DNA of 64,000 nt, from the NCBI GenBank assembly GCA_029210965.1, contig JARGFZ010000003.1, positions 55,893 to 119,892 of the forward strand, read 5' to 3'. This DNA is from a bacterium (lineage in GTDB: Bacteria; BMS3Abin14). Shown piece after piece: positions 49,929 to 64,000 of the stretch. The notes beneath the pieces were generated by a model. It saw only the letters and a list, made by a program, of their open reading frames with translations. It had not been told where the DNA came from and did no database searches. Both the position numbers and the translations under genes were made by a program. Each line of letters begins with the position of its first letter. Within the stretch, counting starts at the first letter, position 1.

Positions 49929-50675
49929 CTATTGATCACCCATATTGAACTGATCGAGAGAGACCTTCTTATAACCTTGCGGGACCTGGAAAGTGGAGGC
50001 AGGCAGATTCTCCTCAACCAGCTCTTCCACGGGCGCCGATACCCCGCTTACAGAGTCCTCATCCACCACCTCTTCCATCATGAGCCAGCCCTTTTTCATC
50101 AGATCAAGGTAGGAAGATGACATGTCAACGGTGTCCCCGTTCATCCCGAGATCCTTGCACACCATCATTTTTTTCATGTGTTCATTTGCCTGGTCCCCGA
50201 AAGATCTATAGAAATTTGCCAGCTGGGCGTCCTCGGCCATCCACACTGTTCTTTCCAGCTGGCCGTTGTCCATCACCTGGTATTTAGTCGTCGCGTATCC
50301 GGCAACGGGCTCTCCTTTGCCGACCTTCTTTACAGTCACATTGGGCTTCGGCCTTGATTCGTTCATCTGCTTCATCTGGGCGAGCATTTCCGGAGGAGCG
50401 CCTGCGTACATCTTTTTGAGAACCTGACAGAACTCCTCGAACTTGAAGGTCGTGTATGTCCGTGAATCGTGATCTACCATCGTGACGGTGCCCTTCCTGA
50501 AATCCATGATCGATTCAGGGCCTCCGGCCTCCGGCGAGGGAACCTGTTTTACAATACCATCGCCGTAGTAGAACACACCCTCCTGGCTCGTTTCAACCCA
50601 CCCGGCGAAAGCAGGGAAGGCAGACAGTACCAAAAGGGCCAGGGCCGCACTGAAAATTCTCCGAAATCTCATCAT
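49929..50675 (-). CDS. DUF4412 domain secreted protein
   Basis: signal peptide; C-terminal ...FQVPQGYKK typical of DUF4412; gaggag RBS. Confidence 0.65.
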   Translation of the reverse strand: MMRFRRIFSAALALLVLSAFPAFAGWVETSQEGVFYYGDGIVKQVPSPEAGGPESIMDFRKGTVTMVDHDSRTYTTFKFEEFCQVLKKMYAGAPPEMLAQMKQMNESRPKPNVTVKKVGKGEPVAGYATTKYQVMDNGQLERTVWMAEDAQLANFYRSFGDQANEHMKKMMVCKDLGMNGDTVDMSSSYLDLMKKGWLMMEEVVDEDSVSGVSAPVEELVEENLPASTFQVPQGYKKVSLDQFNMGDQ

Positions 50676-50724
50676 GTTCTCCTCTTATGTTTTTTCCATG
50701 GGGGCGCCCCCTGGAATTTTAACT

Positions 50725-51351
50725 TTACCTGCTCGGTATCTTCATACCACCCGGCATTCCTGCAGGCATTCCTGCAGGCATTCCTGCAGGCATGGCAAAC
50801 TTGCTGAACCCCTGGGGGACTTCAAAGAGAGCCGGATCCTGTTTTCCAACATTCAGCTCCGTGATCTCGGATTTGACCTGCATATTGCGAGCTCCATCGG
50901 AAACCTGCATGTCGTTCTTGACCAGGATGCCGTCGTCGGTGAGCCAGCTGAAGCCTTCGAGCCTGTTGCCCTGGGGATCCTGGGCCACCGTCCTGTACTT
51001 TGTCGCAGCGATGCCGTTCACCGTCTCCTTGCCAAGGCTCTCCTTCTCCAGATATTTCAGGTTGCCGCCCCCGCCGGGAGCCGCCGCGATGGGCTTTTCC
51101 ATGTACATTTTCTGCTTGGGCATGAGGATCCACATGACCCCCTTGTCGAAGCGGATGATCTGGATGGAATCGTGCATCTCCATGCGCTTCATGCCGGGCG
51201 CTGCGAAGACCTTCGATTCCACATCACCGCGTTCTGTACTCATACGCTGAGTCGCGCTGTATTGGGCGGTTGAGTCATCAGCCTGAACGGAAGAGATGGC
51301 AATCGCTGTATAAAAGCTGACCAACAGAATATACATAACGGTTTTTTTCAT
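50725..51351 (-). CDS. DUF4412 domain secreted protein, tandem paralogue with C-terminal (PAGM)x3 repeat
   Basis: signal peptide; ...FEVPQGFSKF; C-terminus AMPAGMPAGMPAGMPGGM encoded by a 12-nt tandem repeat at 50753..50791. Confidence 0.65.
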   Translation of the reverse strand: MKKTVMYILLVSFYTAIAISSVQADDSTAQYSATQRMSTERGDVESKVFAAPGMKRMEMHDSIQIIRFDKGVMWILMPKQKMYMEKPIAAAPGGGGNLKYLEKESLGKETVNGIAATKYRTVAQDPQGNRLEGFSWLTDDGILVKNDMQVSDGARNMQVKSEITELNVGKQDPALFEVPQGFSKFAMPAGMPAGMPAGMPGGMKIPSR

Positions 51352-51360
51352 TTGTTTCTC

Positions 51361-51464
51361 CTATTGTTTAACCAGTTCCACACGGCGGTTCTTTGCCCGC
51401 CCTCCGTCGCTGGTGTTTGCCATGACCGGTGCCAGGGGGCCGACGCCTTCACCTCGCAGGCGGC
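51361..51464 (-). repeat. duplicated 3' fragment of the OmpA-family gene (~89% identical to 53391..53493)
   Basis: encodes ...SRLRGEGVGPLAPVMANTSDGGRAKNRRVELVKQ* in its own frame, matching the C-terminus of the OmpA gene at 53388..54305; only ~48 codons are open. Confidence 0.75.
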
Positions 51465-52789
51465 TGACGCCACAGATTGTTATGTGTAAGGCCCGAATTC
51501 CCACTGATCAACATCTCGGAGGAGCGGTTCATGTTCTGCTTGCCGGACAGTGTGTTAGACCATTCACTATCCAGGAAATGCCACCTCCAGATGAAGTACC
51601 TTTTGGCACACGCTTTCTTGCCGAGCACCGTATTCCCGAAGCTGCATCCCCCCCATTCACTCTTTTTGCTTGTGGCTGCGTCTCCGAGGGTAAAGGTTTG
51701 CACCACCGTCCGGCTGGACGCTGTATTGGCATTAAGATAGGCATTAGCGACTGTCCGCCCGTCCATCCACTGTTTCGCAAACGGAACGGTCTGGGTCGGA
51801 TAGAAATTGATGAACCGCGATCCTAAAACAGTATTGACCCCTATCCCCTGCCATGCGGAGGCGAGGCGGCTGCCCCAGCAACTCGTGTGATGCACCAGCC
51901 GGATGGGCAGGAACCGGTATCCGGTCGTCCCTCCGTCGGGTCCGGCGAGGCCACCGATGTCCGCTGCCGTAACCTGGTCGTTATTGGTCAGGCTGTACGG
52001 CCCGAAGCTAGCCCGGAATCTTCCGTCGGACCCGCCGTGAGAGATGATCCATATGTCGATGGTGTACCCCTCATCGGCGAGGCGCTTTATATAGGCAAAC
52101 AGGTTGTTTTTGGTCGGCGCGTCCTTGATGTTGACGGTTCGTTCATCCTGCTCGGACAGATCCAGCCACGGTTCCACATTGTCATGCTTGAGAATAACGT
52201 TAAAATCGTAAAGTTCCATGATCTTTTTCAGTTTGACCGTCTCCTGGAAAAAGGATTTGAAGGGACTGTCGGCCATATAGGAAAAGATGATCCCGGCTTT
52301 GCGACCCGTCAGCTTCGGCAGCAACGGTTCAGCCTCGTTTTGCTGGGCCGGTGGTGGAGTCGAAGAGGTCGATGGAGGCGGTGCAGACGTGCCTGCGGCC
52401 GGCGTCCTGATGACCGGTGTTCTGATGACAGGTTGGCGTGTCTGCCACAGTGGCGCAACAGGTGTGGTGCCCACCGGGCGCGGTTGCACAACCGGTGTGG
52501 TGGCCGTTGGTTGCGTGCTTTGCTGCTGGGCGGGAGTTGAAACGGAAGGACTTGAAGTTGCAGCAGGAGCCGTCCATGTACCTGGCTGCGGCGCCTGTAC
52601 AGTTTGAACTGTGCTGGCAGTTGGCTGTGATGGGATGGTCTGCGTGGGCTGCTGTATCTGCTGGGGTTGCGTGGTGGTCATCGCACCGCCCCAGACGGGA
52701 AGGTTGCCGGCTGATGCCCAACTGCTGCCAAACAGCACACCCGCCGCTACAGTAAGGGGAAATAAGGATTTAAACCGGAAATTTTTCAC
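51449..52789 (-). CDS. secreted protein with long Pro/Thr/Gln-rich linker and uncharacterised C-terminal domain (possible His/Cys hydrolase)
   Basis: GTG start with gaggag RBS, signal peptide, ~130 aa of PTQS low complexity, then a globular domain (…IWIISHGGSDG…LVHHTSCWGS…); its 3' end runs into the duplicated OmpA fragment in another frame. Confidence 0.55.
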   Translation of the reverse strand: MKNFRFKSLFPLTVAAGVLFGSSWASAGNLPVWGGAMTTTQPQQIQQPTQTIPSQPTASTVQTVQAPQPGTWTAPAATSSPSVSTPAQQQSTQPTATTPVVQPRPVGTTPVAPLWQTRQPVIRTPVIRTPAAGTSAPPPSTSSTPPPAQQNEAEPLLPKLTGRKAGIIFSYMADSPFKSFFQETVKLKKIMELYDFNVILKHDNVEPWLDLSEQDERTVNIKDAPTKNNLFAYIKRLADEGYTIDIWIISHGGSDGRFRASFGPYSLTNNDQVTAADIGGLAGPDGGTTGYRFLPIRLVHHTSCWGSRLASAWQGIGVNTVLGSRFINFYPTQTVPFAKQWMDGRTVANAYLNANTASSRTVVQTFTLGDAATSKKSEWGGCSFGNTVLGKKACAKRYFIWRWHFLDSEWSNTLSGKQNMNRSSEMLISGNSGLTHNNLWRQPPAR

Positions 52790-53387: not shown

Positions 53388-54305
53388 TTACTGTTTCACC
53401 AGTTCCACCCGCCGGTTCTTTGCCCGCCCTCCATCGCTGCTGTTTGCCAGCACCGGCACCAGGGGGCCAACGCCTTCACCTCGCAGGCGGCTTTTTGCGA
53501 TGCCGTACTTTACCGTCAGGACCTCCACCACCGCCCTGGCTCGGCGCACGGAAAGATCCCTGTTGTAATCCAGGCTCCCGACGCTGTCGGTATGTCCCAC
53601 GACGTAAAGATTCAGATCGGGCCTCTGAGCGAGGAGTTTCGCGATCTCGCCTAACGCTTGCTCGGATTCCGGTTTCACATCTGCTTTGTCGGTGTCGAAA
53701 TAGATGCCGTAGATGGAGGCGTGCCCGGTGCGGTCGATCTCGTCGGCCAGAGCATCGGCATCCACCTTGACCAGCCCCGTTTCCATGGGCTTTGATTCCA
53801 CGATCCCCAGGAAGGTCTTGTCGGTGCCCTTGCACACGTGGAGGTTTACGAAGATGTCACCTTCAGGCCGCGCAAGCCTGGCCGTGGCGTGTCGCTGCTC
53901 GAAACAGGCCCACCGGTAGTTGAGCATGGGATCCTCCGGGCCTGGTTTGCCGCACTCCTTGTCGGCGCAGGTAAAGAGAAACTCGAAGCCGCCGGCCTTC
54001 ATGGCTTCTTCGTAGTTCTGGTAGATCTCCAGGGTCGACCTTTTTTTAGGGTTCTGATAGACGATCCCGGTGGCCTTGCCCTTGACGGTTATGGTGTCAG
54101 CAAAACCGTCACGTCCTGATTTACCCGTGGGCATCTGCACTTCGTCGAAATCGCGGACAAAGGACTTGCCCCCCTTCGACCCGGGATAACGCTTGATCAA
54201 GGGATGGTCGCCGTCTTCGGCCCTGGAACCGGGAACCCAGGCGAACATTATTGCCGCCACCAGGACGAGAACAAATACCGTCAACGATGATTTTCCATAC
54301 AACAT
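53388..54305 (-). CDS. OmpA-family protein (N-terminal domain + C-terminal OmpA_C peptidoglycan-binding domain)
   Basis: signal/anchor; C-terminal OmpA_C motifs (…YVVGHTDSVGSLDYNRDLSVRRARAV…GRAKNRRVELV). Confidence 0.85.
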   Translation of the reverse strand: MLYGKSSLTVFVLVLVAAIMFAWVPGSRAEDGDHPLIKRYPGSKGGKSFVRDFDEVQMPTGKSGRDGFADTITVKGKATGIVYQNPKKRSTLEIYQNYEEAMKAGGFEFLFTCADKECGKPGPEDPMLNYRWACFEQRHATARLARPEGDIFVNLHVCKGTDKTFLGIVESKPMETGLVKVDADALADEIDRTGHASIYGIYFDTDKADVKPESEQALGEIAKLLAQRPDLNLYVVGHTDSVGSLDYNRDLSVRRARAVVEVLTVKYGIAKSRLRGEGVGPLVPVLANSSDGGRAKNRRVELVKQ

Positions 54306-55424: not shown

Positions 55425-55847
55425 CTATTTCGGCGGCACGACGATTATGATCTCGGTCGTCATGTTCCCGGCCAGCCCGAACCATTCCGGGAGGTTCTTG
55501 TTGGTCGCCACCGAGATCTGCTGCTTGCCCATGTAGGCGGCAGGTCCGCCGCCGGGCTCACCAACGTAAAGGATCCAGGCTCCGTACTCTGCGTTTAAAG
55601 CCCAGTCTGGAAATTTATCCTGGTAGAACGCCCGCACATCTTCGACGGGTGCCGAACTGGCGAACCGGGCACCGACCACTTCGTCGCCCAGGCCTCCGTT
55701 GATGAATTCCACGCCCTTGTAAAGCGGTATCCCCGCTTCCTTGAGGATCTTCGCGTCCTTCGCCGGCAGATCCGCCGCAAAAGCGATGAAGGTCGATAAG
55801 ATCAACACCAGGCCAATTATTAAGGATATCTGTAATGTTTTTTTCAT
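55425..55847 (-). CDS. hypothetical secreted protein (paralogue of 55880..56296)
   Basis: signal peptide; C-terminus ...GEPGGGPAAYMGKQQI...EIIIVVPPK shared with the neighbouring gene. Confidence 0.55.
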   Translation of the reverse strand: MKKTLQISLIIGLVLILSTFIAFAADLPAKDAKILKEAGIPLYKGVEFINGGLGDEVVGARFASSAPVEDVRAFYQDKFPDWALNAEYGAWILYVGEPGGGPAAYMGKQQISVATNKNLPEWFGLAGNMTTEIIIVVPPK

Positions 55848-55879: not shown

Positions 55880-56296
55880 TCAACACTTCGCGTTATTTGG
55901 GTATCCGGACGGTGATCTCGGAATCTGTTGAACCCGGGGTCTCATCCGTGGTCCGAGTAAAGATGCACGGCTTTGTTGAAAGGTCCTTGGCCTCCATACC
56001 CCCGGGGCCCTTGTAGATGACCCTGCTCCCGTGACGTCCATTTCAGACCAGTCGGAGAACTTTTCCTCGTACCAGTCCATGATCTTGTCAGGGGAGTCCT
56101 TGGACTTGAACCACATGATGGTGGCGACCTCGTTATCCCCGGTGGTGTAACTGGCGCCCGGATACACCTGGACCCCGACACTTTCCAGGGCCTTTACCTG
56201 CTCTGCCGAGAGATCCTCCGCATAAGCAGCCATCGGTCCCGAGGCCACCATAACCATGCCCAGCAGCATTGCTGCAACTACTACTATTTTCTTCAT
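55880..56296 (-). CDS. hypothetical secreted protein, paralogue with apparent frameshift near 56020-56035
   Basis: N-terminal 2/3 in one frame; paralogue-matching C-terminus (…VIYKGPGG…EITVRIPK*) only appears in another frame. Confidence 0.5.
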   Translation of the reverse strand: MKKIVVVAAMLLGMVMVASGPMAAYAEDLSAEQVKALESVGVQVYPGASYTTGDNEVATIMWFKSKDSPDKIMDWYEEKFSDWSEMDVTGAGSSTRAPGVWRPRTFQQSRASLLGPRMRPRVQQIPRSPSGYPNNAKC

Positions 56297-56335: not shown

Positions 56336-58507
56336 TCACCACCGTTTATTCCCCGGGCATACAGCCATATCGTCCCACTGTTTGCCGCACCACGACCAAT
56401 CCTCAGAATCAGCGTATCCGACCGGCCACTCCCAGCCGATCCAGTAAGCGTTCATTTCTATATCAAAAAGGCTGTCTTTCGGCCTTCCGTCGCAGCTGGT
56501 GGGATCCCACTTGCTGCAGTTTTTTCCGTCCAGCTTTTTTTCCACTTCGTCCGGGACCAGGTCGCCGTCAAAATCCAGTTTATGGCGTTCAAAAAATGAC
56601 AAGGCCTGAGGGTTGGTCGCCCCCCACCACTCCCAGCGCTCTTTTTGATGCCGGGTTTCATGACGGGCCGTCTCCGCAAAGCAATCGATCCCCTTGGATT
56701 CTTTACCACCCAGAGCCTTTACTCTCGGCGCACAGGATTTCTGCATGATCCGATCGGTAAGAAACACTTTGTCTGCTGCGTAATCGTACTGCCCGATAGC
56801 CTTCGAACCATCCGTAGCTATTTTTACAGGCGTGTATGCCGGTTTATACCCCTTGCCGGCCTTCGTTTGCTTCCAGTAAAAGAACCAGTTGGGTATCGTT
56901 CCGCTCCCCGCACCGGGGTGGTTTAACGCATCCGGCGGGAAAAACAGTTGAACCACGACAGAGTCAGACTTCCCGCAGGCGCTGGCGGTGATCCTTTTTT
57001 TGCCCAATTGTGAGGTGTTCCCGGGAAGTCCTTCGAAACTGATCTTCACGGCGTTGGAGGCCGTCGCTGGATCAATCTTTTGCTTCGACCCGCTTAGCTC
57101 CTCCATTTTCCAGGATGCGTCGGCATCGCAGTCCCCCTTGACTTCCGCCTCTGCGTCGATCTCAAGTTCGCCAGGGTTTTCTTTGCCAAAGGTGAACTGA
57201 TCGTCTTTTACAGGTGTTACGATCTTGATGGATGAGGGTTCCTTCTTCTCGGTGGGCTCTTTTTTCGGCGGCCCGGAGATCACGATTGTTTTCTCACTTT
57301 TTAATATCTTCGGCTTTTTCCTCTCGATATACGCGATCCATTTCGTATCACCGGTTGTCGTTCCCAGCCTGGTGCGGCAGACCAGGTCCCATGGGGTATT
57401 TATGGTCGTGGTTCTAATGGTGTAAGAACCTGGCTGGCCCAGATCCACCGTGCATCCCTCTTTCTTGGGAACCGAATGTTTCCCCTCGAAATAGGCGCTT
57501 GAAGCAATAACCTCTTCCACTCCGCTGTCGGCAATCTGATCTATCTCACTGCATGAGAACTCTGCACCCTGGGGAGGTGGAGAGCCGGTGAGGTCGCACT
57601 CCAGGGTGTATATCCCACCCGGATTGGGCTTTGTGTAATCGGGCTCGGGTGCACCCTGCGATTTTTTCGCACCGGCTTCCCGCAGGGTTTCTTTCAACTC
57701 ATCATCACCGGTCAAGCTGGCCATATCCATGGCCGTCCCGCCACCTTTCCTTTTCTTCCCTTTCGAGCCCGGGGAACCCGCAGGAGCGTTCACATCCGCA
57801 CCGGCCTCGATTAGAGCTTTGGCTATCTTTGTTTTCCTCATGGAGACCGCTCGCATGAGCGGCGACGTCCCGTCTTCATCCTTTGCTTCCACATCCGCGC
57901 CGCTCTCGATAAGGATATCGACGATGTTGGCCTTCCCCGCCATGACGGCCAGGCTCAGCGGCCTCATTCCAAGGAACCCGACACCGTTCACGTCCGCGCC
58001 GGCTTCGATCAAAGCCGTGATGATTTCGACCTTCCCTGGCTTGATCGCCGATGAAAGGGCCGTCGCGCCGGTTTTGCCGTCCCTTGTATTTACATTGGCA
58101 CCGGCCTGGATAAGCGCCTTTACGGCATCGGCCTTGCCCTGGGAGACGAAACTCACGAGGACCGTCATGTTCATGAGATCGGATCTGGCGTTCACATCAG
58201 CGCCTTCCTGGGCCAGGAGGCTGATCATGGCCGGATCACGCGCGGCCATGATGACCGGCATGCCGCTGACACTCATGTTCACATCCGCGCCCTGGGTAAT
58301 GAGTCCCCTGACACGCTCCAGGTCACCCTTGCCAACAGCTTTGAAAAACTCTTTCTGGGCGGGGTCAGGGGGGCTGGCAGCGAGGGCCAACGGCTGAAGC
58401 GAGACGGCAGCAAGCATCAAGGCAAGGAACATTGAAGAAAACACATAAAAGCGCCCCGCTCCTGGGCCCTGTTTTATTAAAGCCCGCCCCATTATCAAAA
58501 GACTCAT
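56336..58507 (-). CDS. secreted ankyrin-repeat protein with large C-terminal domain carrying an HExxH motif
   Basis: ATG 58507 with ggagga RBS; >=6 ankyrin repeats (…GADVN… x6); C-terminal ~450 aa with many Cys and ARHETRHQ (HExxH). Confidence 0.7.
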   Translation of the reverse strand: MSLLIMGRALIKQGPGAGRFYVFSSMFLALMLAAVSLQPLALAASPPDPAQKEFFKAVGKGDLERVRGLITQGADVNMSVSGMPVIMAARDPAMISLLAQEGADVNARSDLMNMTVLVSFVSQGKADAVKALIQAGANVNTRDGKTGATALSSAIKPGKVEIITALIEAGADVNGVGFLGMRPLSLAVMAGKANIVDILIESGADVEAKDEDGTSPLMRAVSMRKTKIAKALIEAGADVNAPAGSPGSKGKKRKGGGTAMDMASLTGDDELKETLREAGAKKSQGAPEPDYTKPNPGGIYTLECDLTGSPPPQGAEFSCSEIDQIADSGVEEVIASSAYFEGKHSVPKKEGCTVDLGQPGSYTIRTTTINTPWDLVCRTRLGTTTGDTKWIAYIERKKPKILKSEKTIVISGPPKKEPTEKKEPSSIKIVTPVKDDQFTFGKENPGELEIDAEAEVKGDCDADASWKMEELSGSKQKIDPATASNAVKISFEGLPGNTSQLGKKRITASACGKSDSVVVQLFFPPDALNHPGAGSGTIPNWFFYWKQTKAGKGYKPAYTPVKIATDGSKAIGQYDYAADKVFLTDRIMQKSCAPRVKALGGKESKGIDCFAETARHETRHQKERWEWWGATNPQALSFFERHKLDFDGDLVPDEVEKKLDGKNCSKWDPTSCDGRPKDSLFDIEMNAYWIGWEWPVGYADSEDWSWCGKQWDDMAVCPGNKRW

Positions 58508-58539
58508 GCCTGACACTCCTCCAAAGAACCCGTTTTCGC

Positions 58540-59400
58540 TTAATCCAGAACGCTGTTAAGCCCCTTCAGGTCCAGGGAATTTTTGACATAACTTTCAACG
58601 CTTTCCCGGTCACCATACACATTGGCGTAAAGGACGAGCGCGCGGAGGTGGTTGGCAGGCGTCTGGACGCTCTTGGGAAAGATGACTTTCCAGTTCACCC
58701 GGTCAAACTCGCTCACCTCCCACCCGCCGATATAATATTTGTAACCAAGATGATCCTGGTTGTTCTTGTCGATACGGAACGCGTGGGTCACGCCGGGCGC
58801 CGTCATGTCATACTTCTTGCCGATATGTTCTCCGCCATCGTTAACGAGTACCCTCACAAAAAATTCGGAGGGCTTACCTGCAGGCGGTTGTGAACCCGGT
58901 TCACCCCCTGCAGCCTGACCCATCGCCCCCTCCATCTGTTTCTGGAGCATGGCGTTAAGCTGCAGCTGAGCCTGCTGCATTTTTTCCACATCCCCGGTCA
59001 TGGCCGCGTCCATCATCTCCTTCTCGAGTTCCTGGGCGGACTTTTCTTGCGCGGCCACTTGCCTTTCGGCAGCAGTGATCCGGTGGAATTTAAACCCAAG
59101 GTTAAGCCTCAGGGGGATCTTCCTGTCGTATTCGTAGATCAAAAGGTCATCACCCTGGCGAAATCCGCCCTGGTCGTCCCCCAAGGATGAACTGAGGTCC
59201 CGCTCCCAGCCGTCGAGGGGAGGCACCGCTGCCTTGACCTGATCAATGACGCGGTTGATGAACTGGATTTCGGCGGCAGTTGCCGGACTACCCTCATCGT
59301 CGCTGATAGGGTCGGCAGTGGCTCCTCCCTTAAATCCGGCCAGGAAGAAGAGTATGAGAAATACTGCCTTAAACTTGCGTGATAAATATCGTGTTTTCAT
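58540..59400 (-). CDS. hypothetical secreted protein
   Basis: signal peptide; Q/M/A-rich coiled region; no family recognised. Confidence 0.55.
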   Translation of the reverse strand: MKTRYLSRKFKAVFLILFFLAGFKGGATADPISDDEGSPATAAEIQFINRVIDQVKAAVPPLDGWERDLSSSLGDDQGGFRQGDDLLIYEYDRKIPLRLNLGFKFHRITAAERQVAAQEKSAQELEKEMMDAAMTGDVEKMQQAQLQLNAMLQKQMEGAMGQAAGGEPGSQPPAGKPSEFFVRVLVNDGGEHIGKKYDMTAPGVTHAFRIDKNNQDHLGYKYYIGGWEVSEFDRVNWKVIFPKSVQTPANHLRALVLYANVYGDRESVESYVKNSLDLKGLNSVLD

Positions 59401-59420: not shown

Positions 59421-61121
59421 TTATTGGACGCTGATCTCATATTTAAAATTACCTGTGGTCCGGTAACCATCAATTCTGACGGCGATTCCTCTTGTCTTAA
59501 CCTCTCTGAAAGTGAAAGAACAAGTCTGCCCGATATTATCCTTGCCTTTGGCGAACTCACAGTTCCACGGTGTCCAAAAATGTCCCCAATCTCCCATGTA
59601 ACCAACCACTGTTGCTCTGGATCCTCCGTCAATTTTTTTTATTGTTATCGTGACAGGATCATTCGATTGCCAAAAGTGTCTAAGAAATTTCTTGTGGGTT
59701 GCGGAAACAATATTTCCCGTTCTGGATTCACCTCTTCCTGGCAATTGGACAATTGAATCATTTCTTCTGAAAACATTTGCCGATAAAGGGAAATTGTCCA
59801 TGCATGAATAATAAAATCCCATTCTCATGTTTGCCGGAAAGTTTTGGATCGCATTCCGGTTACAAGGCAGTTCCCCTCTGGGGGTATTGACAGTCACGGT
59901 AAAAGTTCCAGTAGTGCCGCCAGCTACAGGAGTGTTCCCTATCGCCGCGTTGCCATTCAAGATGTTATAGATATAAGGAGCATTTATATTCCCGCTAACG
60001 TATTTCCAGGTAGAAAGTGGTTTGTTCTGGCCGTTGTAAATAGTTTCCCACGATTGAGTTTGCCATGGTTTTACACGCCATTCCTGAGCTGCAGCTGTTG
60101 CACTCGGGGAAACAAGTGTTGCCCCAATTGTCATTGTTGAACCACTATCTGAATCCTGGGTCGTTGTGCTTGATTGCGACGGTGATGAGCCTTGCTGCTG
60201 ATCAGCCTGGGTCGCTGTTGGCTCCACCGGTGTCGCCACAATGGGAGCAGGGCCGGAGGAACGCTGACCGCTTACCGGCGTCACGGTCCCCTGGACAGGT
60301 GTTCCTGTTATGAGAGGAGGCGATGACTGCTGCTGATCGGCCTGGGTCGCCGTGGGCTCCACCGGCGTGGCGACAACGGGAGCGGGGCCGGAGGAACGCT
60401 GACCGCTTACCGGCGTCACGGTCCCCTGGACAGGCGTTCCTGTTATGAGAGGAGGCGATGACTGCTGCTGCCCGGCCTGGGTCGCTGTGGGCTCCACCGG
60501 TATCGCCACAATGGGAGCAGGACCGGAGGAACGCTGACCGCTTACCGGTGTCACGGTCCCTTGAACCGGTGTACCGACGATAGGCGTCGGAGAGGCCGGC
60601 TGGGGGGCGGGAACAGGGGGAGGTGTCCATCCGCCTCCGCTGGCGGGCGGACTGGCTCCCCACTGCGGCGCGGGAGCTTGATTAGAGGGCGGAGGGGCGG
60701 CGCCTCCGGGTTCACTCCACTGGCCCCCGCCGTCATTGGCGGGCTGGCCGTTATTCTGGCCGGCTCCGGGCTCCGGCCCCATGGATGCCGGCCAATAGAC
60801 GGTGATGGTCACTGTGGACCCGAGCATGGTTATCCCACCAGCGCCTGGTTCCTGATCGATGACCGTGCCCTCTCTCCCGGCGAGATCCTCCCTGTATTTC
60901 CTGGCGTACACGATACTCGGCTCGACCCCGGATTGCTGCAGGACGGCCATGGCATCTGACTCGTACATCCCGACAACGCCCGGCACCCGGATCATCTCAT
61001 CGGCCGCCTGATTGTAACGCTGCTGGCTCGGGCCCCGGTCGAGAGCACCGCCAAGTCCCGCCGCAGGGAGCAACAAACCGAACATGGGCAGGACGATATA
61101 AACAAGTCTGCTAAATTTCAT
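59421..61121 (-). CDS. secreted protein: PASTA domain + Pro-rich linker + 3 tandem 41-aa repeats + Cys-containing C-terminal domain
   Basis: ATG 61121 with aggagg RBS; PASTA-like VPGVVGMYESDAMAVLQQSGVEP...GTVIDQEP; three near-identical ~123-nt DNA repeats at 60195..60565. Confidence 0.7.
   Translation of the reverse strand: MKFSRLVYIVLPMFGLLLPAAGLGGALDRGPSQQRYNQAADEMIRVPGVVGMYESDAMAVLQQSGVEPSIVYARKYREDLAGREGTVIDQEPGAGGITMLGSTVTITVYWPASMGPEPGAGQNNGQPANDGGGQWSEPGGAAPPPSNQAPAPQWGASPPASGGGWTPPPVPAPQPASPTPIVGTPVQGTVTPVSGQRSSGPAPIVAIPVEPTATQAGQQQSSPPLITGTPVQGTVTPVSGQRSSGPAPVVATPVEPTATQADQQQSSPPLITGTPVQGTVTPVSGQRSSGPAPIVATPVEPTATQADQQQGSSPSQSSTTTQDSDSGSTMTIGATLVSPSATAAAQEWRVKPWQTQSWETIYNGQNKPLSTWKYVSGNINAPYIYNILNGNAAIGNTPVAGGTTGTFTVTVNTPRGELPCNRNAIQNFPANMRMGFYYSCMDNFPLSANVFRRNDSIVQLPGRGESRTGNIVSATHKKFLRHFWQSNDPVTITIKKIDGGSRATVVGYMGDWGHFWTPWNCEFAKGKDNIGQTCSFTFREVKTRGIAVRIDGYRTTGNFKYEISVQ
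60195..60565. repeat. 3 x ~123-nt in-frame tandem repeat inside the PASTA-domain gene
   Basis: seen directly; encodes SPPLITGTPVQGTVTPVSGQRSSGPAPIVATPVEPTATQADQQQ x3. Confidence 0.9.
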
Positions 61122-61172
61122 GAGAGATCCTCCTGGACGTGATGCAACGGTGTCCACAATCAGACTGTTCCA

Positions 61173-62474
61173 CTATGGGGCTGATGGCTCCCCCTTAGGC
61201 GGCAAGTCCGGCCCCGGCTTGAAAGTGCTGCCGGGGAGGTTCGGAGCGCTCCTGGGTTTGAACACGGTTGTCGGTGAAGTTGGCTTTCCTACCGGTGATA
61301 CCGGTGTTTGCACCCGTGATGGCGGATTAGAAGCGGTGGAAACACGCTGCAGCCAATAGCTGCCTCCCCTGTTGACCATACCGGAGGTGGTGTCGTAAAG
61401 CTGCCTTTCGGTCAGTTTGCCGCAGCTCGCGTCCGCGTCGTAGATCCTCATGGTCGAAGCCTGGTAAGCAGCGTTTGCGGTGGGGACCTTTGTCTGCAAG
61501 GTGTGGAACAGGTAGTTTCCGGATGGGCTTCTGGTGATCGTTCCCTCGCCGCCCGTGGGTGCCCTCTGGGCCGACAGGTGGGTGGCGCGGTAGGTAACGC
61601 TGCCGCCTGCCGTGAAGATCTGCTCAAATTGCCATCCTGTGGTCCTGGTCCCGTTGTTGTAACCGTCCCATGCCCCGGAAAGATCACACTGCGCCGCACC
61701 GCCAGTGGTCCCTGTACCGCTGGCGGGCACCCTGGATGCAGTGCGCGGATCAACAGGTGTAAACTGTGTGCCTCTGGTCCCCTGGCTGGCATCTCCTCCC
61801 CCCCAGACAGGACCGGTCCCGCCGGAAACTGTATTATCAACGCATTGTATGTTGGCTCTTAAAGTCACCGTTTTCTCCGGTACTCTCCGGCCGTAAATGA
61901 ACGATCCCAGAGTTTGAACAAAATCAAAGCGAATCTCCTTTTCCAGAACCGCCGATTTGCCAGGGATAAATACCGGAGGGGCTCCTGACGGGAACTGGCC
62001 GCCGGAGGTGTTGTTCACAGAACGCATGGGAATATCGAAACAGACCGAATTGATGTCCTGCTCCCGAAACGGCTGTCCGGATATCTCCAAACCAGTAAAG
62101 GTGCACAAGGGGGTGTCCAACTCCCCGTAACCCACACGGTAATAATATGGGTTATTACCTAATGATACGCTTCCCGGCTCCATGTGAACGGCAGAAACAT
62201 AATTGATCTTTCTGCAGCGCTTTGTAATCCCACGAGGCTCTTCCACACGGGATACCTGGAAAGTAATACTGTTATTTCCTGAAAAACCTCCCTGGGGATG
62301 CACCTCGAAATTAAACTCCTGCTGGGAGGTAGTAACGGTCTCCACGCTTGATGCCGCGCCCATGGCGGTGTCGGAAAGACCCGTTACCAGGAAAAGGGCG
62401 ACAGCGGCTGCCCACACAACGGGGAAGCTTCCCGCTCGCAGCATCAGTTTTTTTTCAGCATTCAATAACCTCAT
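61173..62474 (-). CDS. hypothetical secreted protein (Gly/Thr-rich)
   Basis: aggagg RBS, signal peptide; ATGA-type 4-nt overlap with the upstream gene. Confidence 0.6.
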   Translation of the reverse strand: MRLLNAEKKLMLRAGSFPVVWAAAVALFLVTGLSDTAMGAASSVETVTTSQQEFNFEVHPQGGFSGNNSITFQVSRVEEPRGITKRCRKINYVSAVHMEPGSVSLGNNPYYYRVGYGELDTPLCTFTGLEISGQPFREQDINSVCFDIPMRSVNNTSGGQFPSGAPPVFIPGKSAVLEKEIRFDFVQTLGSFIYGRRVPEKTVTLRANIQCVDNTVSGGTGPVWGGGDASQGTRGTQFTPVDPRTASRVPASGTGTTGGAAQCDLSGAWDGYNNGTRTTGWQFEQIFTAGGSVTYRATHLSAQRAPTGGEGTITRSPSGNYLFHTLQTKVPTANAAYQASTMRIYDADASCGKLTERQLYDTTSGMVNRGGSYWLQRVSTASNPPSRVQTPVSPVGKPTSPTTVFKPRSAPNLPGSTFKPGPDLPPKGEPSAP

Positions 62475-63712
62475 GGCACCCTCCTTATGGCCTTATCCAC
62501 GGTTCCGTTGGTACGGCCCCCCTCGATCAGGTGAATCTGCCGTATCCAGGCATCCTGTCCCGGGCTCTGGCCTCCGGCAACAGACACCGATTTGATCACC
62601 TGGGGGCCAGGGGTAAGGTCCATCAATTCACTCTCGAAAAAAAACCATTTACCAATCGTTATCTGGACAACACCGTCAGCAGGACTTGACTGGCGATGGG
62701 TCGTGAACCTTGTGCGGTAAGCCTCATCACCACAGTGATCTTTACCCTCAGAATCCAGATAGCAGATGGAAAGCTCAATCGCCCCGGCATCGGTCTGTGA
62801 CAGGCCCCCCGGATCCTTGTCGATACGCAGTTCCATCTCCAGGACAAGGGACCCCGCATCCCGGACTTCCCTCTGTATCACCTGCTTGACACCGGACCGA
62901 AGGGCCTTGCTGTCGCTCCAGATCCGCAGCCCATCTTTTCCGGATGCCACATGATCGACAGCGTCCCCATCCTCCCCCTCGGAAAACAGATCCCATCCCT
63001 GCAGACCCTGGCTGAAATCTCCGTTAAAGATCAGACCTCCCCCGGGACGCCAGTCGGTCCCTGGTCCGTTGTCAGGACCACGGGCATCATAGGGGTATTC
63101 CACAACGTATTGGACCTGGTCTGTTGTCTGCGGCAGGAATAGGTCCGACGGTCCGCGCAGGTAGGTGATCCCTGTTCCCACATGGTTCATGGGCCGGACG
63201 GCCGGGGTGGTCAGGTACATGAAATGACGGAAACGGCTTGTGGGCCCGGCGCCGCGAGGTCTGGCCTGGACGGCCACAAATGCCAGGTTACCCCGGCTGC
63301 GATCGGAGACGCCCACTCGCCACCGGTATTCTATCCAGTCCGGATCCGTGCGGACAACCGGGCCCAGAGGCAGTTTGTAGCTCCTGGCCTCGGGGTCGTA
63401 GGGCCAGCGGTCAAAAAGCTCGGCAGAAAGTTCCTTCCCGGCATCGGCCCGATAGCGCAGCCCCAGAGTGTAATCGAGCCCGGGTTCCAGATCCACCAGA
63501 TAGATGGTGTTGTAGCCGTTCCCAAGGGGGCCTGACCGGTCCAGCGGCGTGTCGGCCCTGTTAAACCCTTGCCCTTCGTACCACTGACCGGTTGCGGGCA
63601 ACTGTATGGCCCGCCACTGAATATCCGCCCCCCTCTGGCCGGCCCTGCCGAAGACAGGCAGGAGTAAAAGGGGAATCACAAGTGCAGTAGCGATCCTGAA
63701 AACCGGATTCAT
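62471..63712 (-). CDS. hypothetical secreted protein
   Basis: aggag RBS, signal peptide MNPVFRIATALVIPLLLLPVFG; co-oriented and tightly spaced with flanking genes. Confidence 0.6.
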   Translation of the reverse strand: MNPVFRIATALVIPLLLLPVFGRAGQRGADIQWRAIQLPATGQWYEGQGFNRADTPLDRSGPLGNGYNTIYLVDLEPGLDYTLGLRYRADAGKELSAELFDRWPYDPEARSYKLPLGPVVRTDPDWIEYRWRVGVSDRSRGNLAFVAVQARPRGAGPTSRFRHFMYLTTPAVRPMNHVGTGITYLRGPSDLFLPQTTDQVQYVVEYPYDARGPDNGPGTDWRPGGGLIFNGDFSQGLQGWDLFSEGEDGDAVDHVASGKDGLRIWSDSKALRSGVKQVIQREVRDAGSLVLEMELRIDKDPGGLSQTDAGAIELSICYLDSEGKDHCGDEAYRTRFTTHRQSSPADGVVQITIGKWFFFESELMDLTPGPQVIKSVSVAGGQSPGQDAWIRQIHLIEGGRTNGTVDKAIRRVP

Positions 63713-63721
63713 CAGCCGCTC

Positions 63722-64000
63722 CTATTCTTCATACCGGCTCACGATCTTTTCCACCGCCTCGTCGATGCAGTCGCGAAGGGCCTTGTCGATCCCCTCTTTC
63801 TTGTCGTGAGCGATCCCTAGGTTCGCGCCTTTCAGCTTTTTCTTCCCGAAAAGTTTTCCCAGACCGGAGGCGGAGAAACCGCCCTCCGAGATCTTTTTCC
63901 TGACGCTGACAGCATCGAGGACTTTCCCTGTTTTGGCATCCAGAACCCGCACGTCAAGGCCGATCTCGGCATTTTCACCGCTGGTTTCCACACCCACACC
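63722..64000 (-). CDS. CsgG-like lipoprotein (C-terminal part; gene continues beyond the window end)
   Basis: …GVGVETSGENAEIGLDVRVLDAKTGKVLDAVSV… resembles the C-terminal beta-strand region of CsgG-family secretion channels; reading frame is open to the window edge. Confidence 0.45.
   Translation of the reverse strand, partial: GVGVETSGENAEIGLDVRVLDAKTGKVLDAVSVRKKISEGGFSASGLGKLFGKKKLKGANLGIAHDKKEGIDKALRDCIDEAVEKIVSRYEE

What the first reader, a model, noticed from the sequence alone, without database searches (positions are those of the whole stretch)
59421..64000. Operon of three large secreted hypothetical proteins downstream of a CsgG-like gene at the window edge
Four co-oriented, tightly spaced minus-strand genes (4-nt overlaps, consensus RBSs) end with a gene whose visible part resembles the C-terminus of CsgG-type outer-membrane secretion channels. 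The cargo-like proteins include a PASTA-domain protein with three perfect 41-aa tandem repeats. This could be a CsgG-dependent surface-fibre or adhesin system unrelated to curli subunits. The upstream part, where CsgE/F-like genes and the rest of csgG would lie, is outside the window.
Basis: partly seen in the sequence, partly recalled or inferred. Interest (0 to 1): 0.55.

Follow-up and report, generated by a model that had tools for sequence, protein, structure and literature searches.

The report
Uncharacterised CsgG-family envelope gene module
The region is part of a conserved but undescribed operon built around a curli-channel-like (CsgG-family) outer-membrane protein, whose fixed partners are a lectin-like beta-sandwich protein and a PASTA-domain protein with a disordered tail; it has no curli parts, so it is probably a new use of this channel family.

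Summary
The genes are real. The cut gene is a CsgG/HfaB-family protein: the complete 228-aa protein scores 104 bits to PF03783, and this exact sequence is recorded on two contigs, the longer being 124,321 bp. Some details of the finding were wrong. There is one 4-nt overlap, not several. The repeats are three 45-aa near-identical copies, not three perfect 41-aa copies. Upstream lies a 141-aa secreted protein, not csgE/csgF.

In 96 related loci the order CsgG-like, then B, then optionally C, then a PASTA protein (D) is conserved. 50 of 52 close CsgG-like genes have a relative of B's N-domain directly downstream, and 23 of 26 loci with full-length B have a PASTA protein.

B models as two beta-sandwiches, the second resembling carbohydrate-binding modules. 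C is all-beta, modelled with low confidence, and dispensable. D's ancestral form is PASTA plus a disordered Trp/Pro/Gly/Gln-rich tail. The window's D has an added low-GC C-terminal domain.

The CsgG-like protein keeps both amphipathic hairpin segments but lacks the E. coli constriction loop, and its lineage lacks a conserved lipobox. Nothing resembles CsgA/B/E/F or HfaA/D, and no beta-solenoid or amyloid features appear.

Best reading, confidence about 0.4: an outer-membrane pore complex that handles or displays peptidoglycan-anchored D together with lectin-like B. A non-secreting envelope tether is nearly as likely.

The parts
63722..64000 (-). 3' part (last 92 codons plus stop) of the CsgG/HfaB-family gene; the complete product is 228 aa
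   Evidence: PF03783 at E=4.4e-12 on the fragment. The full protein from the overlapping contig L001 scores 104 bits to PF03783 and matches E. coli CsgG structures 4uv2/4uv3 at E=5e-10. The exact 228-aa sequence is recorded on two contigs, the longer 124,321 bp, the same length recorded for B and C of this window.
62471..63712 (-). Gene B, 413 aa. Signal peptide, N-terminal beta-sandwich (the 'BN' domain, constant partner of this CsgG-like subfamily) and a C-terminal CBM-like beta-sandwich
   Evidence: AF2 model has mean pLDDT 74.6. Foldseek matches the C-domain to CBM16, CBM22, CBM4 and CBM61 (E about 4e-7, TM 0.66-0.74 on the target). The family has 33 clusters at 90% identity and about 25 full-length clusters at 50% identity among 1.84e9 proteins. 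A BN-like ORF lies directly downstream of the CsgG-like gene in 50 of 52 loci.
61173..62474 (-). Gene C, 433 aa. Signal peptide, all-beta N-domain, Gly/Thr-rich linker, conserved small beta C-domain and a conserved Pro-rich tail. It is a lineage-restricted insertion between B and D
   Evidence: ATGA overlap with B. Only 11 clusters found. Alignment A3 shows invariant cysteines. AF2 pLDDT is 57.9 and no PDB match reaches E<=1e-3. C is absent from many syntenic loci, for example L006, L007, L012, L014 and L015.
59421..61121 (-). Gene D, 566 aa. Signal peptide, conserved GALDRG..RYN motif, PASTA domain, 264-aa Pro/Ser/Thr/Gly/Gln-rich linker and a C-terminal globular domain
   Evidence: NCBI names the exact protein 'PASTA domain-containing protein'.
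60798..60989 (-). PASTA domain of D (aa 45-108)
   Evidence: PF03793, 38.7 bits. Two MAG assemblies differ by 20 nt in 88 bp here (window 60867-60954) and nowhere else in 3.3 kb.
60186..60590 (-). Three tandem 45-aa repeats within the D linker (aa 178-312)
   Evidence: TRF reports a 135-nt period, 2.8 copies, 90% matches at 60193-60572. Copies share 39-43 of 45 aa. The same TPVQQTVTPV and ATPVEPTATQA motifs occur 0-4 times in homologues.
59424..60011 (-). C-terminal globular domain of D (aa 371-566), compositionally foreign
   Evidence: GC 0.43 and GC3 0.43, against GC3 0.57-0.73 in every neighbouring gene segment. The D family has at least three C-domain types. Most related modules have no such domain.
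58540..59400 (-). Gene E, 286 aa, secreted, with a coiled-coil-like middle; a conserved accessory gene of the extended cluster
   Evidence: 55% identical orthologue in L002 and weaker relatives upstream of the csgG-like gene in L004, L008 and L010. No Pfam or PDB match.
56336..58516 (-). Secreted ankyrin-repeat protein, 726 aa, with an HETRH motif; an insertion specific to this genome
   Evidence: Ank Pfam hits. Absent from all syntenic loci. HExxH motif at 56648-56662.
55880..56296 (-). Small secreted 'YPG-motif' protein (p138), frameshifted in this assembly
   Evidence: Orthologues in L002, L004 and L005. The two halves lie in different reading frames near 56030.
55425..55847 (-). Small secreted paralogue (p140), highly conserved
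   Evidence: 64-78% identity to orthologues at the same position in L002, L004 and L005.
53388..54305 (-). OmpA-family protein with a DUF4892 N-domain, 305 aa; a recurrent member of the module family
   Evidence: PF00691 at E=3e-17 and PF16234 at 27.8 bits, just under its 28.8 cut-off. 79-80% identical orthologues in L004 and L005. DUF4892/OmpA genes also flank the more distant type II modules.

Best explanation
What it is (high confidence). The region is the front half of a long minus-strand envelope operon. It belongs to an undescribed family of gene modules built around a CsgG/HfaB-family protein. The constant parts are:
- the CsgG-like protein;
- a beta-sandwich protein encoded directly downstream (the N-domain of B);
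- a secreted PASTA-domain protein whose ancestral form is PASTA plus a disordered Trp/Pro/Gly/Gln-rich tail (D);
- an OmpA/DUF4892 peptidoglycan-binding protein nearby.
This genome's lineage has added a CBM-like lectin domain to B, inserted gene C, and given D a long repeat-containing stalk and a swappable C-terminal domain.

How it most likely works (inferred).
- The CsgG-like subunits assemble into an oligomeric outer-membrane beta-barrel, using the two conserved amphipathic hairpins.
- The constriction loop is 11 residues shorter than in E. coli CsgG, so the lumen would be wider and would need a partner. B's N-domain is the best candidate for that obligate partner (cap or plug), not a cargo.
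- D binds peptidoglycan through PASTA. Its unfolded tail or stalk enters or crosses the pore. This tethers the complex to the wall and, in this lineage, presents an exchangeable C-terminal domain outside, alongside the glycan-binding domain of B.
- In relatives, a dedicated histidine kinase and NarL-type regulator sit upstream and probably control expression.

Shown: gene content, synteny, domain and fold assignments, hairpin conservation, disorder and variability of D.
Inferred: pore formation, who is partner and who is substrate, topology, and ligand binding.
For: - CsgG family membership: 104 bits to PF03783. Direct alignment to E. coli CsgG structures over the core and the first hairpin, without gaps in the hairpin.
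- Both hairpin segments are conserved in 11 orthologues, with invariant Gly/Ser/EAN positions and alternating hydrophobicity.
- Distant members carry canonical lipoboxes: LASC, SAGC and AAGC.
- Synteny CsgG-B-(C)-D holds from 76% down to 30% B identity. A BN-like ORF lies within 400 bp downstream in 50 of 52 loci of the subfamily, against 5 of 31 for more distant CsgG-likes. A PASTA protein is present in 23 of 26 loci that have full-length B.
- B is a tandem beta-sandwich with a CBM16/22/4-like C-domain.
- D has a conserved N-terminus and PASTA domain, a variable disordered tail that is 70-90% P/G/S/T/Q/A/N/D/E with no hydrophobic windows, and an optional C-domain. Recurrent Trp motifs occur in the tails.
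- D's C-domain has foreign GC content.
- More distant modules replace PASTA-tail with a different protein made of a low-complexity region plus a small domain, next to the same CsgG-like/BN pair and a DUF4892/OmpA gene. The common denominator is therefore a disordered polypeptide beside a CsgG-like gene.
- The CsgG-like, p140 and OmpA genes are far more conserved (62-82%) than B, C and D (25-56%), as expected for machinery versus exposed parts.
- CsgG channels are known to pass unfolded polypeptides (established knowledge of curli secretion).
Against:
- In the window's lineage the lipobox cysteine is not conserved. It is absent in L004, L005 and L009, and non-canonical (LTVC) here, with a signal peptidase I-like ASA|W site. 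In E. coli, lipidation is needed for membrane insertion.
- The E. coli constriction residues Y51/N55/F56 are missing.
- B, C and D's C-domain have invariant cysteines. This suggests disulfide-bonded proteins folded in the periplasm, which would not pass a narrow CsgG pore unfolded.
- No energy source or chaperone analogue has been identified.
- PASTA domains do not always bind peptidoglycan.
- The CBM-like assignment rests on fold alone; no sequence family matches.
Confidence: 0.4

Rival explanations
1. A non-secreting envelope tether or scaffold. The CsgG-like protein acts as an outer-membrane-associated or periplasmic ring or adaptor, as its distant fold relative LpoB does. B, the PASTA protein and the OmpA/DUF4892 protein form a periplasmic complex linking the outer membrane to peptidoglycan. 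D's proline-rich stalk acts as a periplasm-spanning spacer, like the Pro-rich regions of TonB or TolA. Nothing is exported.
For: - Two peptidoglycan-binding-type domains (PASTA and OmpA) recur in the module.
- There is a weak LpoB-family signal on the N-half of the CsgG-like protein: PF13036 at 27.5 bits.
- The lipobox is not conserved in this lineage and the constriction loop is missing.
- B, C and D have conserved cysteines, as folded periplasmic proteins do.
- B's N-domain and PASTA are as constant as the CsgG-like gene, as subunits of one complex would be.
Against: - Both CsgG-type hairpin insertions are retained at full length, with alternating hydrophobicity and invariant glycines. LpoB lacks them (established knowledge), and they have no obvious role in a soluble scaffold.
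- TIGR02722 LpoB scores 22 bits against a cut-off of 110.
- The fast evolution of B, C and D, the swapping of D's C-domain and its foreign GC fit exposed proteins better than housekeeping tethers.
Confidence: 0.3
2. A holdfast-anchor-like system. The CsgG-like pore exports B, C and D, which then anchor an exopolysaccharide or capsule to the cell surface, as HfaB does for HfaA and HfaD in Caulobacter. B's CBM-like domain would be the glycan-binding element.
For: - NCBI names the protein 'CsgG/HfaB family'.
- There is a weak HfaB-model match over the C-half (E=1e-6).
- Gene order resembles hfaA-hfaB-hfaD: a small secreted protein, then the CsgG-like gene, then larger secreted proteins (the hfa gene order is from established knowledge).
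- B has a CBM-like fold.
Against: - The HfaB equivalog scores 28 bits against a cut-off of 300, and nothing matches HfaA or HfaD.
- No polysaccharide synthesis or export genes were seen in the flanks examined.
- The CBM-like domain is missing from the more distant modules, which have BN only.
- The 141-aa upstream gene is restricted to this lineage.
Confidence: 0.12
3. A curli-like functional amyloid or fibre system, in which the CsgG-like pore secretes subunits that polymerise outside the cell.
For: CsgG family membership. Tandem repeats in D. In more distant type II modules the low-complexity partner can be Q/Y-rich and prion-like, for example L059 7250-9160.
Against: - No Curlin_rpt, CsgE, CsgF, CsgA or CsgB match in any gene.
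- D's repeats are 17% proline and act as linker sequence. Their number is not conserved (0-4 motif copies), and most modules have only a short disordered tail.
- B and C model as globular beta-sandwiches, not solenoids.
Confidence: 0.05
4. The genes are unrelated neighbours that happen to be co-oriented, with no shared function.
For: None beyond the lack of direct functional data.
Against: The same gene order recurs in dozens of independent contigs across wide sequence divergence. The genes are tightly spaced, and no terminator-like sites were found in the gaps between them.
Confidence: 0.02

Closest known systems
Curli (type VIII) secretion: CsgG channel with CsgE, CsgF and substrates CsgA/CsgB (E. 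coli; PDB 4uv3, 3x2r, 6si7)
   Same: The same protein family: PF03783 at 104 bits, and E=5e-10 to the solved CsgG structures. The alpha/beta core and both hairpin segments that build the barrel are present. TM1 reads GVAGAYKGVGVET here and GVGARYFGIGADT in E. coli. The gene is co-transcribed with Sec-exported partners.
   Different: - The protein is 228 aa against 277 aa.
- The constriction loop is 11 residues shorter and lacks Y51/N55/F56, and the C-terminal helix is missing.
- The lipobox is not conserved in this lineage.
- There are no CsgE, CsgF or curlin-repeat proteins.
- The partners are a beta-sandwich protein and a PASTA protein, which curli systems do not have.
Caulobacter holdfast anchor HfaA-HfaB-HfaD
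   Same: A CsgG-family protein used outside curli, flanked by a small secreted protein upstream and larger secreted proteins downstream. It is the accepted precedent for non-curli clients of this channel family.
   Different: The HfaB equivalog model scores only 28 bits against a cut-off of 300, and there are no HfaA or HfaD relatives. There is no sign of an associated polysaccharide locus.
LpoB (outer-membrane lipoprotein activator of PBP1b)
   Same: Shares the N-terminal alpha/beta fold region (PF13036 at 27.5 bits on aa 59-128). Shares a thematic link to peptidoglycan through the neighbouring PASTA and OmpA proteins.
   Different: TIGR02722 scores 22 bits against a cut-off of 110. The protein here carries the two CsgG-type hairpin insertions.
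PASTA-domain proteins (PknB/Stk1 kinases, PBP2x)
   Same: D has one clear PASTA domain (PF03793). The only non-family sequence hits of D are PASTA kinases of Actinomycetota and similar organisms.
   Different: D has no kinase or transpeptidase domain (NF033483 at 19.9 bits against 450). It is a Sec-exported stand-alone PASTA domain followed by a disordered tail. It is encoded next to an outer-membrane protein gene in MAGs labelled as Proteobacteria, Deltaproteobacteria or Desulfuromonadales.
Carbohydrate-binding modules CBM16, CBM22, CBM4 and CBM61
   Same: B's C-terminal domain has the same jelly-roll fold (Foldseek E about 4e-7, TM 0.66-0.74 on the target). It carries the N-G-D-F..G...W start motif common in such modules (read from the sequence; the motif's generality is from my own knowledge).
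   Different: No Pfam CBM family matches by sequence. It is not attached to a glycoside hydrolase. Sugar binding is untested.

Membership tests
CsgG family (PF03783) / curli type VIII secretion | CsgG domain above Pfam's gathering score | tested here: met
   The fragment scores 46.2 bits and the full 228-aa protein 104 bits, against a cut-off of 20.8. E=5e-10 to 4uv2/4uv3.
CsgG family (PF03783) / curli type VIII secretion | Two amphipathic beta-hairpin segments that form the transmembrane barrel | tested here: met
   Tested at sequence level only. TM1 aligns without gaps to E. coli CsgG. Both segments are conserved in 11 orthologues, with alternating hydrophobicity. The 3D arrangement was not modelled.
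CsgG family (PF03783) / curli type VIII secretion | N-terminal lipoprotein signal (lipobox Cys) | tested here: inconclusive
   The window protein has a non-canonical LTVC inside the hydrophobic core, followed by ASA|W. Orthologues L004, L005 and L009 have no Cys at all. The more distant L011, L014 and L015 have canonical lipoboxes.
CsgG family (PF03783) / curli type VIII secretion | Constriction loop with Tyr51/Asn55/Phe56 | tested here: not met
   The loop is 11 residues shorter and lacks these residues.
CsgG family (PF03783) / curli type VIII secretion | Accessory genes csgE and csgF | tested here: not met
   No PF10627 or PF10614 hit, nor any other family hit, for the 141-aa upstream protein, B, C, D or E. 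No such Pfam mark appears in syntenic loci.
CsgG family (PF03783) / curli type VIII secretion | Curlin-repeat substrates (CsgA/CsgB) | tested here: not met
   No Curlin_rpt hit in any cluster protein.
CsgG family (PF03783) / curli type VIII secretion | Nonameric outer-membrane pore | not testable with these tools
   No multimer prediction was available, and the full-length protein could not be submitted for structure prediction.
Holdfast anchor (HfaA/HfaB/HfaD) | HfaB equivalog score (NF037935, cut-off 300 bits) | tested here: not met
   28.2 bits, covering only the C-terminal half.
Holdfast anchor (HfaA/HfaB/HfaD) | Adjacent HfaA and HfaD homologues | tested here: not met
   No NCBIfam hit for the 141-aa protein, B, C or E; D matches only a PASTA-kinase model far below its cut-off.
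LpoB | TIGR02722 equivalog score (cut-off 110.55 bits) | tested here: not met
   22.3 bits. The Pfam LpoB hit covers only aa 59-128.
PASTA-domain proteins | PF03793 above the gathering score | tested here: met
   38.7 bits against 23.2, at D aa 45-108.
PASTA-domain proteins | Attached Ser/Thr kinase or PBP transpeptidase domain | tested here: not met
   NF033483 scores 19.9 bits against 450. No other Pfam domain is found in D.
Carbohydrate-binding modules (CBM4_9/16/22-like) | Jelly-roll beta-sandwich fold similar to solved CBMs | tested here: met
   Foldseek hits 2zex, 3oeb, 4xup and 2xom at E=4e-7 to 8e-6. TM on the target is 0.63-0.74 for the single-module CBM16/61 entries and 0.3-0.5 for the CBM22 entry 4xup. 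The B model has pLDDT 83-95 over most of the C-domain.
Carbohydrate-binding modules (CBM4_9/16/22-like) | Sequence membership in a CBM family and sugar binding | tested here: not met
   No Pfam family at E<=0.1. Ligand binding cannot be tested here.

The most novel reading that the evidence does not exclude
This would be a previously unrecognised, fairly widespread CsgG-family outer-membrane system, distinct from curli and holdfast. A pore without the usual constriction pairs with a dedicated beta-sandwich subunit. It threads the disordered, Trp-studded tail of a wall-anchored protein across the outer membrane. The anchored protein is PASTA-tail here and a low-complexity region plus a small domain in other lineages. 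That would be a new route for tethered surface display of exchangeable domains in diderm bacteria.
Probability: 0.15. Interest if true: 0.8.

Novelty: new variant of a known kind. Interest (0 to 1): 0.52.

Why it matters
CsgG-family proteins are very widespread, but only two client systems are understood: curli and the Caulobacter holdfast anchor. This work defines a third, conserved partner set: a beta-sandwich protein always encoded next to the channel gene, a stand-alone secreted PASTA protein with a disordered tail, and an OmpA/DUF4892 protein. None of the partner families beyond PASTA and OmpA matches any Pfam, NCBIfam or PDB sequence.

If the pore-and-tether model holds, it shows how a channel for unfolded polypeptides can be reused to link the cell wall to the surface and to display swappable domains. 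It would also give a function to PASTA domains outside Gram-positive kinases and PBPs. A CsgG-like pore without the usual constriction may also interest nanopore engineers. If the tether model is right instead, it adds a new outer-membrane-to-peptidoglycan connector.

Tried and rejected
- Contig extension. An exact-protein look-up of B found only a 4.4-kb contig, L001. A look-up of D found nothing on record. The window's own upstream DNA was therefore not obtained. However, the exact 228-aa CsgG-like protein is recorded on two contigs, the longer 124,321 bp.
- CsgE/CsgF/curlin, HfaA/HfaD and LpoB membership were rejected by Pfam and NCBIfam scans.
- PDB sequence searches with the D profile, E, p140 and the 141-aa protein found nothing meaningful.
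- The structure of C was low-confidence (pLDDT 58), and its Foldseek hits (pilus chaperones and similar) are all above E=1e-3 with TM below 0.2 on the query. I treated them as generic beta-sandwich noise.
- A tblastn of the CsgG-like protein against PLSDB plasmids gave no match.
- Literature searches for CsgG-like plus PASTA, CsgG plus DUF799/DUF4810/COG1462, periplasmic PASTA in Gram-negatives, and DUF4892 found no description of this module. DUF4892 is known only from the PA1624 structure paper, PMC7716261.
- P0142, which matches only B's C-domain, sits in an unrelated context, so the CBM-like domain alone is not diagnostic.
- The 578-aa GTG start for D was rejected in favour of the ATG at 61121.
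- I considered the 141-aa upstream protein as a CsgF/HfaA analogue. It is restricted to this lineage, so it is not part of the core.
- Taxonomy could not be resolved beyond MAG labels: 'bacterium', Proteobacteria, Deltaproteobacteria, Desulfuromonadales, and Syntrophorhabdaceae for type II modules.

Full report
**1. What is in the sequence**

ORF listing and direct reading show a run of minus-strand genes:
- a gene cut by the window end (63722-64000; 92 codons visible);
- B (62471-63712; 413 aa);
- C (61173-62474; 433 aa; ATGA overlap with B);
- D (59421-61121; 566 aa from the ATG that follows AGGAGG);
- E (58540-59400; 286 aa);
- a secreted ankyrin protein (56336-58516);
- two small paralogues (55880-56296 and 55425-55847).

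After a 270-nt gap come a cytoplasmic Zn-ribbon protein and an OmpA-family gene (53388-54305). Gaps between genes from the cut gene down to 55425 are 9-51 nt, or overlapping. No terminator-like site lies in these gaps. Every product except the Zn-ribbon protein starts with basic residues followed by a strongly hydrophobic 12-residue stretch, as Sec signal peptides do.

The cut gene matches PF03783 CsgG (E=4.4e-12) and D contains a PASTA domain. D's tandem array has a 135-nt period, 2.8 copies and 90% matches. That gives three 45-aa copies sharing 39-43 of 45 residues, not three perfect 41-aa repeats. Only one gene pair overlaps by 4 nt.

**2. The cut gene, completed**

An exact look-up of protein B found a 4.4-kb contig from GCA_032251125.1 (L001). 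It matches the window without gaps from 64000 to 60677, with 20 clustered mismatches, and extends 1.1 kb further upstream.
- It gives a complete 228-aa CsgG-like protein: 104 bits to PF03783, E=5e-10 to E. coli CsgG structures, and weak matches to the HfaB and LpoB models.
- The same exact 228-aa sequence is recorded on two contigs, the longer 124,321 bp, the length also recorded for B and C of this window. NCBI names it 'CsgG/HfaB family protein'.
- Upstream lies a 141-aa secreted protein with four or five cysteines and no family match. It is not csgE or csgF.

**3. How CsgG-like is it?**

I aligned the protein with E. coli CsgG. I also aligned it with ten orthologues.
- The alpha/beta core and both barrel-forming hairpin segments are present at full length. 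TM1 reads GVAGAYKGVGVET against GVGARYFGIGADT in E. coli.
- The hairpins have invariant Gly, Ser and E-A-N positions and alternating hydrophobic and polar columns.
- The loop that forms the E. coli constriction (Y51/N55/F56) is 11 residues shorter and lacks those residues.
- The C-terminal helix of E. coli CsgG is missing.
- The lipobox cysteine is not conserved in the window's lineage. It is absent in three of eight orthologues, and the window has LTVC followed by ASA|W.
- More distant members of the same module (L011, L014, L015) have canonical lipoboxes.

**4. Conserved neighbourhood**

B has only 33 clusters at 90% identity among 5.8e9 proteins. It has about 25 full-length clusters at 50% identity among 1.84e9. 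All come from MAGs or metagenomes. C has 11 clusters and D has 11.

Contigs carrying B homologues at 56%, 48% and 40% identity show the following:
- Gene order in the fullest case (L005): a 723-731-aa membrane protein with a weak HisKA_3 H-box; a NarL/GerE response regulator; the 141-aa protein; the CsgG-like gene; B; C; D; a 252-aa protein; p138; p140; AIM24; OmpA/DUF4892; DUF4412.
- L004 carries the E relative upstream of the csgG-like gene.
- L002 has E between the 252-aa gene and p138, and lacks the AIM24-to-DUF4412 tail.

The window shares this order but lacks the 252-aa and AIM24 genes. It has the ankyrin and Zn-ribbon genes instead.

More distant B homologues (about 30% identity; L014, L015) sit in a minimal module:
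- a lipoprotein CsgG-like gene;
- B;
- a 229-237-aa PASTA protein that is only PASTA plus a disordered tail;
- a Yip1 membrane protein.

C is absent there, and also from close relatives L006, L007 and L012.

**5. The view from the CsgG side**

A metagenome scan with the CsgG-like alignment returned 80 more loci. I searched six-frame translations with HMMs.
- Of 52 non-duplicate loci whose CsgG-like gene scores at least 204 bits and which have at least 300 bp downstream, 50 have a relative of B's N-domain starting within 400 bp. The figure is 5 of 31 for more distant CsgG-likes.
- 23 of 26 loci with full-length B and enough sequence also have the PASTA protein.
- A second architecture ('type II', seen for example in Syntrophorhabdaceae MAGs) has four parts:
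  - a DUF4892/OmpA gene;
  - a protein with a long low-complexity region (sometimes Q/Y-rich repeats) and a conserved 100-aa C-domain;
  - a lipoprotein CsgG-like gene;
  - a 205-244-aa protein that is the B N-domain alone.
- None of the partner families matches Pfam.

The family-wide core is therefore CsgG-like, plus the BN beta-sandwich, plus a protein carrying a disordered segment, plus OmpA/DUF4892.

**6. The proteins**

*B.* The AF2 model (pLDDT 74.6) is two beta-sandwiches. The C-terminal one matches CBM16, CBM22, CBM4 and CBM61. It has two invariant cysteines.

*C.* The model is poor (pLDDT 58). It is all-beta with a disordered linker and a conserved Pro-rich tail, and has no significant structural match.

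*D.*
- Right after the signal peptide there is an invariant GALDR...RYN motif and then the PASTA domain.
- A variable linker follows, carrying 0-4 copies of the TPVQQTVTPV and ATPVEPTATQA motifs.
- At least three C-domain types occur.
- In most related modules the protein ends after a 26-192-aa tail that is 70-90% P/G/S/T/Q/A/N/D/E with no hydrophobic window. The tail is often studded with Trp motifs such as Q-W-G, G-W-T-P-P-P and T-W-G-E-T-E.
- The window's D C-domain has GC3 of 0.43 against 0.57-0.73 for all neighbours. It looks recently acquired.

*Rates.* The CsgG-like, p140 and OmpA genes are 62-82% identical across the compared genomes, while B, C and D are 25-56% identical.

**7. Interpretation**

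Membership in the CsgG family is solid. Membership in the curli or holdfast systems fails on every partner-dependent feature tested.

The mechanism I favour, at about 0.4:
- The CsgG-like subunits form an outer-membrane barrel.
- BN is its obligate partner, a cap or plug for a lumen that lacks the usual constriction.
- The PASTA protein is anchored to peptidoglycan and feeds its unfolded tail into or through the pore.
- In this lineage the tail has grown into a repeat-containing stalk with a swappable end domain, and B has gained a lectin-like domain.

Weak points:
- no oligomer model could be made;
- lipidation is doubtful in this lineage;
- conserved cysteines in B, C and D argue against passage in an unfolded state.

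A non-secreting outer-membrane-to-peptidoglycan tether explains the PASTA and OmpA content and the cysteines equally well (about 0.3), but gives the conserved hairpins no role. A holdfast-like glycan anchor (about 0.12) and an amyloid fibre system (about 0.05) are less supported.

**8. Novelty and verdict**

No paper in the searchable library describes this module. I rate it a new variant of a known kind: a third, conserved client or partner set for CsgG-family proteins.

The gene is CsgG-like, the genes are linked, and the system is not curli. But there is no csgE/csgF, there are no fibre features, and at least B's N-domain looks like a subunit rather than cargo.

Noticed in passing
window 59424-60011: The C-terminal domain of D has GC 0.43 and GC3 0.43, while all neighbouring gene segments have GC3 0.57-0.73. 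Together with the three or more C-domain types in the family, this suggests recent cassette replacement.
   Followed up: partly
window 60867-60954 (versus L001 4143-4230): Two MAG assemblies of this organism are identical over 3.3 kb, except for 20 substitutions packed into 88 bp inside the PASTA domain (8 amino-acid changes). This could be a recombination patch or a strain or paralogue chimera.
   Followed up: partly
window 55880-56296: The p138 gene is split between two reading frames near 56030 when compared with its intact orthologues. This is a 1-nt indel: either a pseudogene or an assembly error.
   Followed up: yes
window 51364-51465: A 34-aa fragment 91% identical to the C-terminus of the OmpA/DUF4892 protein (53388-54305) is repeated here, across the end of the 446-aa ORF at 51449-52789.
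   Followed up: no
window 56336-58516: A secreted 726-aa protein with ankyrin repeats (aa about 90-245) and an HETRH (HExxH) motif at 56648-56662 is inserted in the cluster. It is absent from all syntenic loci. The rest of the protein has no family match.
   Followed up: partly
L001 1-30: The contig that extends the window upstream ends in CCCTTA-like short repeats (ccccttaccc ccttaccccc ttaccc). This may explain the assembly break upstream of the 141-aa gene.
   Followed up: no
L059 7250-9160; also L053 5027-5824 and L058 4837-5814: In type II modules the low-complexity partner can be strikingly prion-like (for example QYQGQQ repeated about 12 times and PNQPAPQDANPSQYPQ about 8 times). It is fused to a conserved C-terminal domain of about 100 aa with no Pfam match.
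   Followed up: partly
L032 4508-5668 and 6607-7893; L033: Two of the 52 close CsgG-like loci replace B with an unrelated 386-428-aa secreted protein, present as two paralogues in L032. L032 still keeps the PASTA protein.
   Followed up: no
L006 and L007 (both MAG PFL40, JALHUC01): One MAG carries two copies of the CsgG-B-D module (B 76% and 74% identical to the window's), both without gene C. They could be paralogues or co-binned strains.
   Followed up: no
window 49929-51351: Two adjacent DUF4412 genes lie here. The one at 49929-50675 is 57-63% identical to genes in L004 and L005, extending the synteny. The 446-aa ORF (51449-52789) shares its N-terminal 'YPG' domain with the 252-aa family that the window otherwise lacks.
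   Followed up: partly
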